Source of the DNA: a virus
UHGV virus genome: UHGV-0795592
Strand: one strand, 5' to 3'
Length of the DNA: 23,456 bases
Numbering within the stretch: the stretch's first letter is position 1; every line of letters starts with the position of its first letter. The notes under the pieces were generated by a model, which had not been told where the DNA came from, ran no database searches, and saw nothing but the letters and a program-made list of their open reading frames with translations. This document shows positions 16,360-18,280 of the stretch, piece by piece. The position numbers and the translations under genes are program-made.

Positions 16360-16407
16360 AAAATAAGCTATAACACCTGACTTGTCAACAGATTTTATAG
16401 CTTATTT
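16360..16407 (-). promoter_or_regulatory. sigma70-like promoter embedded in a 13-bp perfect inverted repeat
   Basis: On the minus strand: -35 TTGACA (plus 16383-16388), 17-bp spacer, -10 TATTTT (plus 16360-16365). Inverted repeat arms AAATAAGCTATAA (16361-16373) and TTATAGCTTATTT (16395-16407) flank the -35. Confidence 0.4.
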
Positions 16408-16850
16408 GGCAGATTTTTTATAAGGCTACTGCCATCCTTCCATACCTTACCGAACATCACCCTACTGAACCCGACCCTACCTCACCCGACCCAACCGAAC
16501 CGTACCGAGCACAGACTTATTAAAAGACCCTGTTTAAAGACCTTTTAAAAAGGTAAGTCTCATTTTAATGTAGTTGAGACTAACTACCCGCACCGAACCT
16601 CACATGACCTGACCGCACCCGACCTCACCGCGCCATGCCATAACATACCTTACTTAAAAACCCTTTTCAAAGACTCTTAAGTGATGTAATCGAATTTTAA
16701 TGTAGCTCCGATTAACTACCCATACTTTACCTAACCCGACCGCACCTAACCCGACCTGACCCTACCAGACCCCACCTAGCTAAACCTTATTAAAAGACCC
16801 TGTTTAAAGACCTTTTAAAAAGGAGCCTCCGAAGAGGCTACCTAGTCAAC
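16401..16850. repeat. modular non-coding repeat region A: three (ACCNN)n pentamer arrays, AT-rich motifs and hairpins
   Basis: Arrays at 16444-16508, 16592-16656 and 16724-16788, with AC at every fifth base on the plus strand. Motif M1 (ttattaaaagaccctgtttaaagaccttttaaaaagg) at 16517-16553 and identically at 16787-16823. Motif M2 at 16653-16686. Hairpins at 16556-16581 and 16687-16714. No ORF in the track. Confidence 0.75.
16824..16845 (-). terminator. candidate intrinsic terminator after the 146-aa gene
   Basis: Hairpin AGCCTC-CGAA-GAGGCT (16824-16839). Read on the minus strand it is followed by CCTTTTTAAAAGG. It lies directly 3' of the gene ending at 16851. Confidence 0.4.
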
Positions 16851-17291
16851 TTAGAATGGTTTTCTACGTTGCTTGTTAATATTAGCCTTCATAGCAGCTA
16901 AGTGGTTTTGCTGTTCAATCAGCCGTGAACGTTCTTGATGACTAAGTGCCATAGTGTTCACATTCTCAATCGCTTGAGTGGCTTGCTTTAAAGCTCGACC
17001 AATCTTGCCAGACATTTTACGTTTTGCAATAGTTGCTTGATGCTTAGGTTCAACCACACGATAACCAACACCCATTGAAGCAACCAGATAAATCTTCTCT
17101 TCTTTAAGAAGCTTCTCAATAAACTTCTCAAGTCGGTTTAGACGTGTAAGCGCATAAGCCTTCATTTCATCTTCGTACTTAACAATGTCACCTTGATAAG
17201 TTGGCTTCACAATACCTAAGAAGGTATCCATCTCAGAGTGTGATACAGTGTCACCGTAACTAAACTTTGCTGCTAATGCTTTTGTGTTCAT
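16851..17291 (-). CDS. hypothetical protein with a basic C-terminus
   Basis: 146 aa, ATG with Shine-Dalgarno GAAGGT. C-terminal K/R-rich tail (NINKQRRKPF). No recognisable motif. Confidence 0.5.
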   Translation of the reverse strand: MNTKALAAKFSYGDTVSHSEMDTFLGIVKPTYQGDIVKYEDEMKAYALTRLNRLEKFIEKLLKEEKIYLVASMGVGYRVVEPKHQATIAKRKMSGKIGRALKQATQAIENVNTMALSHQERSRLIEQQNHLAAMKANINKQRRKPF

Positions 17292-17293
17292 AA

Positions 17294-17881
17294 TTAAACG
17301 TTACCTTCTGAAATAACTTCTACAGAAAAACGACCAAAGCGTGGACGCCAATCACCTACACCACAAAGGTTACCAGCATTTTCCAGAACCATCAGAAGTT
17401 CCTCTCTGGTGATTTGCTCTTCATCAAACATCAAGCCAAACTCTACAGACCAATCACGGAAGATTGGACGGTAGCTCATAACTCGTGCTGTACCAATCTT
17501 AACAGACTTAGCATAGATAAAGTCTGGATTCTTAGCAAGTTCTTGTGGGTTTGCTGGACAGTTCTTGATAGTCATTGGGAAGACTACATCTGTCAGCATA
17601 ATGGCTCGGTCAATTACCTTACCAAGTTTGTTGAGTTTCGCACCAGACTTGATGCAAGCCTCAATCATCTCACCGTTCATAACAAAACCTAGTTGCTCAT
17701 CGTAGTAACAAGAGGTTACCAGTTGGCTTTCTGCTAAGAGCGCATAGTCTTCGTCAGTCTTTTTACGTTTACTGGACAGAGACTTGTGATATTTTGTCAG
17801 AGGGTTTAATGGGTCTGACAGCGTATCAGCGTGGCTCAGGAAAGGACGAGTACCAGTGATTTTGATATTTAACAGTTTCAT
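17294..17881 (-). CDS. hypothetical protein
   Basis: Start re-called to ATG at 17881 ([10 protein letters not shown]…) with GGAG about 9 nt upstream; the track start at 17896 is GTG. About 195 aa, no recognisable motif. Confidence 0.5.
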
Positions 17882-17950
17882 AGCATTTAGCTCCACACTT
17901 TAGTTGCTTGTTAAGTTGTTTGTAAAGAACCCTCAACAGAAGACTCTTTA

Positions 17951-18280
17951 GAAACTTGGTAGATTTTTAACGTGGCTGCTACCATCCACCCATACTTTAC
18001 CTAACCAAACCGAACCTCACACAACCAGACCGAGCCGCACCCCGCCTTATTAAAAGACCCTCTTAAAGACCTTTTAAAAAGGTAAGTCTCATTTTAATGT
18101 AGCTGAGACTAACTACCCATACCCTACTTTACCTTACCGTACAGTACTTTACCCGACCACACCGGACAATACTTAACCCTACCTCACCCGACCGGACATC
18201 ACTTAAAAACCCTTTTCAAAAACTCTTAAGTGATGCTGGTGAGTACCCGTTGGTTTATGCTGCTCAGTATACTCACCAAA
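17951..18280. repeat. modular non-coding repeat region B, homologous to region A: two (ACCNN)n arrays, M1, M2 and hairpins
   Basis: Arrays at 17994-18043 and 18121-18205. M1 variant at 18047-18082 (2-3 differences). Hairpin at 18085-18110 identical to region A but for one loop base. M2 at 18202-18235 (1 mismatch). Extra 8-bp-stem hairpin at 18238-18277. Confidence 0.75.

What the first reader, a model, noticed from the sequence alone, without database searches (positions are those of the whole stretch)
16401..18280. Two homologous non-coding regions built from (ACCNN)n pentamer arrays, AT-rich motifs and covarying hairpins
Five arrays of 10 to 17 consecutive pentamers each start with AC on the plus strand (for example ACCGA ACATC ACCCT ACTGA ACCCG ACCCT ACCTC ACCCG at 16449-16488), about 66 units in all. 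The period of 5 is not a multiple of 3 and no ORF spans them, so they are non-coding. Each array is followed by a conserved AT-rich motif (M1 three times, M2 twice) and a hairpin. The two hairpin versions share the loop core TTTTAATGTAG but have different stems that each stay complementary (AGTCTCA/TGAGACT versus TAATCG/CGATTA). That covariation argues for selection on structure. I do not recognise this architecture. Candidate roles: an origin with phased protein-binding iterons next to the polymerase and ligase genes; protein-binding arrays for transcription control; or structured non-coding RNAs.
Basis: seen in the sequence. Interest (0 to 1): 0.85.

Follow-up and report, generated by a model that had tools for sequence, protein, structure and literature searches.

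The report
VIPR guide-RNA arrays in a Felix-O1-like phage
The two odd pentamer-repeat regions are the guide-RNA genes of a VIPR system, a phage RNA-guided gene-silencing system first described in 2026. They flank its two protein genes and are aimed at a satellite element that lives in E. coli chromosomes, so the finding is real and important but already explained.

Summary
Five arrays with strict 5-nt periodicity lie in the two intergenic regions around two small minus-strand genes. They occur nowhere else in a 90-kb relative.

The functional strand is the minus strand, where the units read GGY-NN. The 195-aa gene between the regions is 98% identical to the solved "SUSP1 Vipr protein" (PDB 36pp). 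The 146-aa gene is 99% identical to SUSP1 Vap1.

Two 2026 bioRxiv papers describe this system, VIPR (Viral Interference Programmable Repeat). Vipr, a RAMP protein, polymerises on vrRNAs made of 9-16 YNNGG repeats plus a pseudoknotted 3' tail. The NN dinucleotides read double-stranded DNA while skipping every third base, and this silences transcription.

I re-derived the defining features here:
- GGY is conserved and NN hypervariable across 28 related loci.
- Array length changes only in whole pentamers (66 of 68 arrays).
- The tail pseudoknot is supported by covariation.
- Target matches to an E. coli satellite island appear only under the one-base-skip rule.

Four of the window's five guides match at 84-93%, two of them in the satellite's large recombinase gene.

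The origin/iteron reading is rejected; the "structured ncRNA" reading was right. This is already known. What remains open is why vipr-less Felix-O1-type phages keep orphan guide modules, and what the inter-guide hairpins do.

The parts
17294..17881 (-). vipr gene (195 aa, RAMP-family guide-RNA-binding protein). The mechanical ORF list starts it at a GTG at 17896; the ATG at 17881 matches the SUSP1 protein.
   Evidence: PDB 36pp_D 'SUSP1 Vipr protein', E 2.4e-128. 191/195 aa identical to SUSP1. The RNA-contact residues H17, E71, M72, R138, C173, D177, W178 and R179 are all kept (residues).
16851..17291 (-). vap1 gene (146 aa, VIPR accessory protein)
   Evidence: 145/146 aa identical to the gene after vipr in SUSP1. 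The paper reports that vap1 enhances VIPR protection and predicts it to be DNA-binding. No Pfam or PDB match.
18085..18202 (-). vrRNA-a (upstream, distal): 16 GGY-NN units (18119-18202) plus a 34-nt pseudoknot tail (18085-18118)
   Evidence: Best target 27/32 NN positions at L153:6045-6091 in a satellite gene; every skipped base falls on codon position 3.
17958..18049 (-). vrRNA-b (upstream, proximal): 11 units (17992-18049) plus a tail of the GGTAG/CTACC type (17958-17991)
   Evidence: Best target 20/22 at L155:7058-7089, overlapping the start of a satellite gene.
16688..16789 (-). vrRNA-c (downstream 1): 13 units (16722-16789) plus a tail with the AAUCGGA/UUCGAUU stem (16688-16721)
   Evidence: Best target is only 20/26 (L152:16560-16597, satellite recombinase), below the 80% criterion.
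16556..16653 (-). vrRNA-d (downstream 2): 12 units (16590-16653) plus a tail (16556-16589)
   Evidence: Target 21/24 at L154:13782-13816 in the satellite large recombinase gene; skipped bases fall on codon position 3.
16408..16519 (-). vrRNA-e (downstream 3): 15 units (16442-16519) plus a tail of the GGCAG/CTGCC type (16408-16441)
   Evidence: Target 28/30 at L153:13583-13626 in the satellite large recombinase gene; skipped bases fall on codon position 3.
18197..18235 (-). M2 inter-guide hairpin (stem CATCACTTAA/TTAAGTGATG, conserved loop), immediately 5' of vrRNA-a. The second copy is at 16650-16686, 5' of vrRNA-d.
   Evidence: Read from the sequence. Conserved in SUSP1. Role not established.
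18045..18082 (-). M1 inter-guide hairpin (stem CCTTATTAAAAG/CTTTTAAAAAGG, loop ACCCTnTTTAAAGAC), 5' of vrRNA-b. Further copies at 16785-16823 (5' of vrRNA-c) and 16516-16553 (5' of vrRNA-e).
   Evidence: Read from the sequence. M1 and M2 share the loop but differ in the stem. Role not established.
18266..18293 (-). sigma-70-like promoter TTGACA-16-TATACT (11/12 match), just after the ligase stop and pointing into vrRNA-a
   Evidence: Identical in SUSP1, FO1a and BPS17W1. A consensus match only; no transcript data for this phage.
17897..17926 (-). sigma-70-like promoter TTTACA-18-TAAAGT in front of vipr
   Evidence: A promoter is annotated at the matching place in phage ASO1B.
16824..16839 (-). 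intrinsic terminator after vap1 (AGCCTC TTCG GAGGCT followed by a T run)
16360..16388 (-). sigma-70-like promoter TTGACA-17-TATTTT of the next gene (15932-16315), marking the downstream end of the locus

Best explanation
The region 16408-18293 is a complete type II VIPR (Viral Interference Programmable Repeat) locus of the SUSP1 clade, carried by a Felix-O1-like phage (Felixounavirus). It is transcribed on the minus strand.

The locus has two guide-RNA genes upstream and three downstream of the vipr-vap1 gene pair. Each guide (vrRNA, about 92-118 nt) is a run of 11-16 pentamers, GGY-NN, ending in a conserved 34-nt pseudoknotted tail.

The mechanism below was shown for SUSP1 in the two 2026 preprints and is inferred here by near-identity:
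- Each GGY is flipped out and sequestered by the protein, while the NN bases are presented for pairing.
- The NN dinucleotides pair with double-stranded DNA while skipping every third target base.
- This gives a gapped RNA-DNA hybrid that wraps the non-target strand as a triplex and blocks transcription. No PAM is needed.

The skipped base usually falls on the codon wobble position, so synonymous escape mutations do not help the target.

Shown here by computation: the guides of this phage and its relatives match a roughly 11-kb satellite island of E. coli chromosomes. The island carries a tape-measure gene and a baseplate gene related to the phage's own. Two of the window's guides lie in its large serine recombinase gene. 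The likely biological role is therefore to silence a parasite of this phage.
For: 1. Proteins. The gene between the arrays matches PDB 36pp_D 'SUSP1 Vipr protein' at E 2.4e-128. Vipr is 191/195 and Vap1 145/146 identical to SUSP1, with the RNA-contact residues kept. Gene order, promoter, M motifs and tails are collinear with SUSP1.

2. Published description. The papers describe vrRNAs as 9-16 YNNGG repeats with conserved GGY, hypervariable NN and a pseudoknotted tail. They report about 100-nt transcripts in infected cells, co-purification with Vipr, and a one-base-skip rule proven in vitro and in vivo.

3. Repeats. There are 67 units; 76% are GGY and 21% NGY. In 28 related loci the NN differ freely between phages with 99%-identical flanks, while the register from tail to M motif is kept in 66 of 68 distinct arrays, which run from 9 to 19 units.

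4. Tail pseudoknot. Across 21 distinct tails, 92% of cells are paired, 10 of 12 pairs change on both sides, 0 of 500 shuffles reach the observed score, and slid controls give 29-37% pairing. G.U wobbles appear only on the minus strand. Loop lengths (1-2 nt, then 7-9 nt) suit an H-type knot only on that strand.

5. Targets. I scanned 69 distinct guides against four satellite islands. Hits at 80% or more NN match numbered 16, 10, 10 and 8 with a one-base skip, and 0 with skips of 0, 2 or 3. All hits in L152 fall inside the island. The window's guides score 28/30, 21/24, 27/32 and 20/22; three of these put every skipped base on codon position 3. There is no self-target in the window (maximum 0.68).

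6. Independent route. An array-first scan of IMG/VR recovered degenerate arrays beside distant Vipr homologues in unrelated contigs.
Against: - No expression, RNP or silencing data exist for this particular phage. Transcript ends are not known, so the vrRNA boundaries given are inferred from the repeat and tail limits.
- One guide (vrRNA-c) reaches only 77% in the four satellite variants I sampled.
- The pseudoknot structure was derived from the same few tail types on which it was then counted, so it leans towards itself.
- About a quarter of the units depart from GGY.
- The two papers are preprints.
Confidence: 0.93

Rival explanations
1. The regions are a replication origin. The pentamers would be phased iterons or primase start sites next to AT-rich unwinding elements and hairpins, close to the ligase and polymerase genes.
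For: AT-rich motifs and hairpins sit beside GC-richer repeats. The regions lie between a terminator and a promoter. The phage primase/helicase is T7 gp4-like, and, from my own knowledge, T7 primers start pppACC/ACA, which resembles the + strand units.
Against: The unit sequence is hypervariable between near-identical phages. The base before AC, where a T7-type cryptic base would sit, is unbiased. Many relatives lack one whole region together with the two genes. The Vipr identity and the skip-rule target matches explain every feature.
Confidence: 0.02
2. The arrays are decaying or neutral repeat expansions (relics) with no present function in this phage.
For: 24% of units are not GGY. Relatives without vipr still carry such arrays, so arrays can persist without the protein.
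Against: vipr and vap1 are intact and nearly identical to the experimentally active SUSP1 genes. Register is kept in 66 of 68 arrays. Four of five guides match satellite genes at 84-93%, with wobble-phased skips in three. Chance would not give that: no hit at all appears under the other skip rules.
Confidence: 0.03
3. The arrays act at the RNA level in another way: as a leader or attenuator bound by a ring protein in the manner of TRAP, as a sponge for a host RNA-binding protein, or as a G-rich R-loop-forming transcript.
For: The arrays are in sense orientation downstream of a strong promoter. Triplets recur every 5 nt, as with TRAP sites (own knowledge). The minus-strand RNA is G-rich and C-poor.
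Against: Unit number varies from 9 to 19, which does not fit a ring of fixed size. The NN carry target-matching information, which none of these models predicts. There is no Rfam match.
Confidence: 0.02

Closest known systems
VIPR type II, SUSP1 clade (bioRxiv 10.64898/2026.04.26.720920 and 10.64898/2026.04.26.720927; PDB 36pp)
   Same: Vipr is 98% and Vap1 99% identical. It has the same gene order, promoter, GGY-NN repeats, tail pseudoknot and inter-guide motifs, and the same target class (an E. coli satellite island).
   Different: The host genome is a Felixounavirus rather than Suspvirus SUSP1. There are two upstream guides instead of one, so five vrRNAs against four. All guide NN sequences differ from those of SUSP1.
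Class 1 CRISPR-Cas crRNA with a Cas7 backbone (Cascade, Csm/Cmr)
   Same: A RAMP-fold protein polymerises along a guide RNA, flips out bases at a fixed period, and presents the rest for pairing. A variable guide part is capped by a conserved structured handle.
   Different: - The period is 5 nt with three bases sequestered, not 6 nt with one.
- The guide is non-contiguous and reads the target with a one-base skip.
- There is no repeat-spacer array, no cas1/cas2 and no PAM.
- The system is carried by a phage and acts by silencing.
TRAP-trp leader RNA of Bacillus (11 (G/U)AG triplets with 2-3-nt spacers; own knowledge)
   Same: A short conserved triplet recurs about every 5 nt in an RNA and is read by a protein oligomer, with free spacer bases.
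   Different: TRAP is a closed 11-mer ring with a fixed site number, and it controls an attenuator in cis. Its spacers carry no information. Here the filament is open, the unit number varies from 9 to 19, and the spacers are the message.
Promoter/stem-loop regulatory cassettes (PeSL) that flank shuffled genes in T4-type phages (own knowledge, not checked here)
   Same: Repeated regulatory modules flank a small gene cassette that is present in some relatives and absent in others. That pattern is what recombination between the modules would produce.
   Different: PeSLs are promoter-plus-terminator units with no guide function. Here the repeated modules are guide-RNA genes.

Membership tests
VIPR system (type II, SUSP1 clade) | A vipr gene encoding a small RAMP homologue with G-loop and thumb | tested here: met
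   PDB 36pp_D match, E 2.4e-128. 191/195 aa identical to SUSP1 Vipr, with H17, R138, D177, W178 and R179 kept.
VIPR system (type II, SUSP1 clade) | A vap accessory gene (vap1) directly after vipr | tested here: met
   The 146-aa ORF at 16851-17291(-) is 145/146 identical to the SUSP1 gene in the same position.
VIPR system (type II, SUSP1 clade) | Tandem YNNGG (GGY-NN) repeats, at least 4 and typically 9-16, in the intergenic regions flanking vipr, on the vipr strand | tested here: met
   Five tracts of 16, 11, 13, 12 and 15 units on the minus strand; 76% GGY and 21% NGY.
VIPR system (type II, SUSP1 clade) | GGY conserved while NN is hypervariable among close relatives | tested here: met
   In 28 loci with 99%-identical flanks the NN differ freely. 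The register is kept in 66 of 68 distinct arrays.
VIPR system (type II, SUSP1 clade) | An invariable 3' tail of about 40 nt that folds into a pseudoknot | tested here: met
   Alignment A1: 92% of cells paired, 10 of 12 pairs with changes on both sides, 0 of 500 shuffles reach the score, slid controls 29-37%. Caveat: the structure was derived from these same sequences.
VIPR system (type II, SUSP1 clade) | Guides match foreign DNA under the one-base-skip rule (at least 80% of NN positions) and do not match the own genome | tested here: met
   16, 10, 10 and 8 hits with skip 1 against 0 with skips 0, 2 or 3 on four satellite islands. Window guides score 93, 88, 84 and 91%, with one at 77%. Self-match maximum is 68%.
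VIPR system (type II, SUSP1 clade) | vrRNAs are expressed as roughly 100-nt RNAs that co-purify with Vipr, and the complex silences transcription of the target | not testable with these tools
   Shown for SUSP1 in the preprint. Here there are only consensus promoter matches.
Iteron-type replication origin | Several copies of one conserved initiator-binding sequence (usually 17-22 bp), kept between relatives | tested here: not met
   The units are 5 nt with 2 free positions. Array sequence is unrelated between phages with identical flanks.
CRISPR array | Identical direct repeats of 23-47 nt separated by unique spacers, with cas genes nearby | tested here: not met
   The repeat search finds only the pentamer tracts and the M/hairpin modules. 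No cas-like domains in the neighbours.
Any Rfam RNA family | A covariance-model match | tested here: not met
   No match up to E = 1 in 16200-18400, both strands.

The most novel reading that the evidence does not exclude
Not everything around this locus is covered by the preprints.

About half of the Felix-O1-like phages that carry these intergenic modules have no vipr or vap1 anywhere in their genome. They still keep one or two promoter-equipped guide modules with an intact tail, preserved pentamer register and, in some, satellite-matching NN.

The most novel reading is that these orphan guides are functional, in one of two ways:
- as guides that borrow Vipr from a co-infecting vipr-positive phage, or
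- as decoys that soak up a competitor's Vipr (an anti-VIPR).

On the same reading, the M1/M2 hairpins between guides would be a so far undescribed punctuation element (processing, termination or recombination). Recombination at these repeats would drive gain and loss of guides and of the vipr-vap1 cassette.
Probability: 0.2. Interest if true: 0.6.

Novelty: already known. Interest (0 to 1): 0.35.

Why it matters
VIPR is a newly described mode of RNA-guided DNA recognition. Its authors propose that it pre-dates CRISPR. It is also a very small programmable DNA binder: one roughly 20-kDa protein plus one guide of about 100 nt, with no PAM.

This window shows three things:
- The system can be recognised from raw sequence alone by its GGY-NN periodicity.
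- It is common in Felix-O1-like phages, which are used for Salmonella and E. coli typing and biocontrol.
- Its guides can be decoded directly. Here two point to the integrase-type (large serine) recombinase and two to other genes of a satellite found in about 9% of complete E. coli genomes.

That bears on how such therapeutic phages cope with satellites in their hosts. The locus itself adds no new principle.

Tried and rejected
Ideas tested and dropped:
- Primase-site arrays. Felix O1 has a T7 gp4-like primase and the units look like pppACC primers. But the position where a cryptic base would sit is unbiased.
- Rho utilisation site on a + strand RNA (C-rich, G-poor). No + strand promoter was found, and the genes and promoters point the other way.
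- R-loop or G-quadruplex origin on the G-rich minus transcript. This does not explain the invariant central G or the informative NN.
- BoxA-like antitermination motif in the M loops (GGUCUUUAA). This is a resemblance only and was not pursued.
- Type III toxin-antitoxin (ToxI-like) repeat RNA upstream of a toxin gene. The neighbouring protein turned out to be Vipr.
- Rfam scan: nothing found.

Searches that led nowhere:
- The first literature searches on Felix O1 repeats and transcriptomes gave nothing relevant. The Felix O1 and wV8 genome papers do not mention these repeats.
- Strict GGY arrays were not found in the four satellite islands sampled.
- blastn found no vipr-vap1-like DNA in 5,426 complete E. 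coli genomes.
- tblastn found no Vipr or Vap1 homologue in the four islands.
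Full report
**What is in the sequence**

The window comes from a Felix-O1-like myovirus (genus Felixounavirus). The region 16316-18300 matches 231 phage records, nearly all Escherichia, Salmonella and Shigella Felixounavirus phages.

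All genes around the finding lie on the minus strand:
- DNA ligase, 18301-19440
- a roughly 200-aa ORF, 17294-17896
- a 146-aa ORF, 16851-17291
- a 127-aa ORF, 15932-16315

On the + strand there are five runs in which AC recurs exactly every 5 nt: 13, 8, 11, 8 and 17 units. None occurs elsewhere or on the other strand. Shuffles of the window give 0.02 runs of 5 or more units. Within the units, A and C are fixed, the third base is C in 44 of 57, and the last two bases are unbiased. In a complete 90-kb relative (SME50) such arrays occur only in these two intergenic regions.

**Comparative anatomy**

I collected 28 related loci. Phages whose flanking sequence is about 99% identical carry completely different array sequences. 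The register is nevertheless preserved. The distance from the end of each hairpin to the next M motif is always 3 (M1) or 4 (M2) modulo 5. This holds in 66 of 68 distinct arrays, which range from 9 to 19 units. The tolerated departures are A to G at the first base and C to A or T at the third base. On the minus strand the unit therefore reads GGY-NN, with the central G nearly invariant.

The number of modules varies from one to six. Felix-O1-type phages such as FO1a and NJ12 lack the two small genes and have a single region with one module.

**Strand and structure**

A strong sigma-70-like promoter (TTGACA-16-TATACT, 11/12 match) sits on the minus strand just after the ligase stop and points into the arrays. 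Weaker promoter matches precede the 200-aa gene and the 127-aa gene. A clean intrinsic terminator follows the 146-aa gene.

Read on the minus strand, each hairpin is half of an H-type pseudoknot. The conserved "lead" after the array (GUAGU, AAGG or GUGG) pairs with the conserved part of the hairpin loop (ACUAC/GCUAC, CCUU or CCAC). The first loop is 1-2 nt and the last is an A-rich 7-9 nt. That geometry works only on this strand.

Over 21 distinct tails, 92% of cells pair and 10 of 12 pairs show changes on both sides. None of 500 shuffles reaches the observed covariation, and sliding the partners gives 29-37% pairing. G.U wobbles appear on the minus strand where the plus strand would have A.C mismatches. 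The caveat is that I derived the structure from these same sequences, and only a few tail types exist.

**How the identity emerged**

Before any protein clue, I scanned IMG/VR for seven ACCNN units. The scan returned at least 120 loci. Many were simple exact repeats. About twenty were degenerate multi-array clusters in unrelated contigs. In four I inspected, the arrays lay in sense orientation directly downstream of a roughly 200-aa gene (312 aa as a mechanical ORF in L128) whose N-terminus resembled the window's 200-aa ORF. These proteins are distant homologues: phmmer E values run from 1e-11 to 2e-6, with shared H, R..RP and GxGD[W/F/Y]RP motifs.

A search of solved structures then gave PDB 36pp chain D, "SUSP1 Vipr protein", at E 2.4e-128. 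A literature search found two 2026 bioRxiv papers from one laboratory.

**What the papers say**

- VIPR stands for Viral Interference Programmable Repeat. A system consists of vipr (a minimal RAMP protein of about 20 kDa), usually one accessory gene (vap), and vrRNAs encoded in the flanking intergenic regions.
- vrRNAs are about 100 nt long. They hold 9-16 YNNGG repeats with conserved GGY and hypervariable NN, followed by an invariable tail that forms a pseudoknot in the SUSP1 clade.
- In SUSP1-infected cells four vrRNAs were seen, one upstream and three downstream of the genes. They co-purify with Vipr.
- The NN dinucleotides recognise double-stranded DNA with one skipped base between them. 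This was shown by a pangenome search, by competitive binding and by GFP repression. No PAM is needed and either strand can be targeted.
- Cryo-EM shows one protomer per repeat in a right-handed filament. Each GGY is flipped out and held by H17 and D177 (first G), R138 and W178 (second G) and E71, M72 and R179 (the pyrimidine). The gapped RNA-DNA hybrid wraps the non-target strand as a triplex.
- In the SUSP1 clade, 18 of 20 assignable guides hit a satellite phage in E. coli chromosomes.

**Testing membership here**

- Proteins. SUSP1 carries the same locus in the same place, between the ligase gene and the 127-aa gene. Window Vipr, read from the ATG at 17881, is 191/195 identical and Vap1 is 145/146 identical. 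The cited contact residues are all present.
- Guides. The window has two guides upstream and three downstream, five in all: 18085-18202, 17958-18049, 16688-16789, 16556-16653 and 16408-16519. They hold 16, 11, 13, 12 and 15 units. Of these units, 76% are GGY and 21% NGY.
- Finding the target element. I located the satellite independently. The first ~545 nt of the window's gene at 2741-3538 matches a "phage baseplate protein" gene in 474 of 5,426 complete E. coli genomes, at 92-94% identity in the best hits. That gene lies in islands of about 11 kb with two recombinase genes, a tape-measure gene and small ORFs.
- Skip-rule test. I scanned 69 distinct guides from the Felixounavirus loci and SUSP1 against four island variants. 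Hits at 80% or more NN match numbered 16, 10, 10 and 8 with a one-base skip. There were none with skips of 0, 2 or 3. In L152 every hit lies inside the island and none in the 19 kb of flanking chromosome.
- The window's own guides:
  - vrRNA-e scores 28/30 and vrRNA-d 21/24, both in the large serine recombinase gene.
  - vrRNA-a scores 27/32 in a hypothetical gene.
  - vrRNA-b scores 20/22 across the start of another small gene.
  - vrRNA-c reaches only 20/26, in the recombinase gene.
  - In the two recombinase hits (vrRNA-d and -e) and the vrRNA-a hit, every skipped base falls on codon position 3.
- Self-targeting. None of the guides matches the window itself above 68%.

Expression, RNP formation and silencing cannot be tested with these tools. 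They rest on the SUSP1 experiments.

**Verdict on the interpretations**

The origin/iteron idea is rejected. The units are too short and too variable, and the cassette is dispensable in many relatives. The "structured non-coding RNA" idea is right. "Protein-binding arrays for transcription control" is right only in the sense that a protein binds the RNA copy and silences genes elsewhere.

My own intermediate ideas are each contradicted by the data: primase sites, a Rho site, an R-loop origin, a TRAP-like attenuator and a ToxI-like antitoxin. They are listed under what was tried.

**What is left over**

First, orphan guides. FO1a has one rather degenerate module, and BPS17W1 has two well-formed modules (MG646669.1, 43862-44285). 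Neither genome encodes Vipr or Vap1 anywhere (tblastn E above 0.3). The intergenic modules are found in 231 phage records, but Vipr at 90% identity or more in only 118. Orphan arrays keep promoter, tail and register, and 67% of their units are GGY against 74% in vipr-positive loci. Some orphan guides still match the satellite at 82-91%. blastn finds no vipr-vap1-like DNA in any complete E. coli genome, and tblastn finds no Vipr or Vap1 homologue in the four islands sampled. These orphans may be recent relics of cassette loss by recombination between the repeated modules. Alternatively, they may act in trans. The preprint text contains neither the word "orphan" nor "Felix".

Second, the inter-guide hairpins. 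The M1 and M2 elements between guides are hairpins with one shared loop and two different stems. Their role (promoter, terminator, processing or recombination site) is not addressed in the text I could read.

**Score**

The finding is a textbook example of a system published months earlier, so it is already known. It remains a correct and sharp observation, and the orphan-guide question gives it some residual interest.

Noticed in passing
L156/L157 (Salmonella phage FO1a, JF461087.1, 57530-57811) and L158/L159 (BPS17W1, MG646669.1, 43862-44285): Felix-O1-type phages with no vipr or vap1 anywhere in the genome (tblastn E above 0.3) still carry one or two vrRNA-like modules between the ligase gene and the gp86-like gene. 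The modules keep promoter, pseudoknot tail and pentamer register. Some of these orphan guides match the E. coli satellite at 82-91%. The preprint text I read does not contain the word 'orphan'.
   Followed up: partly
window 16516-16553, 16650-16686, 16785-16823, 18045-18082, 18197-18235: The AT-rich M1 and M2 motifs between guides are themselves hairpins. They share a loop (ACCCTnTTTAAAGAC on the + strand) and have two different complementary stems. They lie outside the repeat-plus-tail unit and their role is unknown.
   Followed up: partly
window 2741-3538; L152 6000-17400, L153, L154, L155: The first ~545 nt of the phage gene after the tape-measure gene match a 'phage baseplate protein' gene in 474 of 5,426 complete E. 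coli genomes, at 92-94% identity in the best hits. That gene sits in mosaic islands of about 11 kb with two recombinases, an HNH endonuclease and a tape-measure gene, inserted at different chromosomal sites. This is the satellite that the guides target, and this phage is a plausible helper.
   Followed up: partly
L128 (reverse complement 1566-2717), L050 (reverse complement 1240-2423), L040 4602-5050, L039 (reverse complement 3850-5880): Unrelated IMG/VR contigs carry 7-20 degenerate GGY-NN arrays in a row beside distant Vipr homologues. Their punctuation between arrays is quite different: AACTGCC, AAATTAAATTCATTAAACC, CCCATTAGCCTT, or AT-rich stretches. In L039 the arrays are spread over several intergenic regions, and a ParB-like 227-aa gene lies among them.
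   Followed up: partly
window 18235-18242 and 18238-18279: The long hairpin after the ligase stop (GGTGAGTA...TACTCACC) contains the -10 element of the strong minus-strand promoter. On the + strand it begins with GCTGGTGA, one base away from the E. coli Chi octamer.
   Followed up: no
window 17881-17896: The mechanical ORF list starts the vipr ORF at a GTG at 17896 (200 aa). The solved SUSP1 protein and the SUSP1 annotation start at the ATG at 17881 (195 aa).
   Followed up: yes
L017 around 1517-1600 and L029 around 249-320 (offsets within the ligase-to-gp86-like intergenic segment extracted, not raw locus coordinates): Two arrays in related phages break the pentamer register by one base in mid-array. 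These are the only 2 exceptions among 68. They could be sequencing errors or guides in decay.
   Followed up: no
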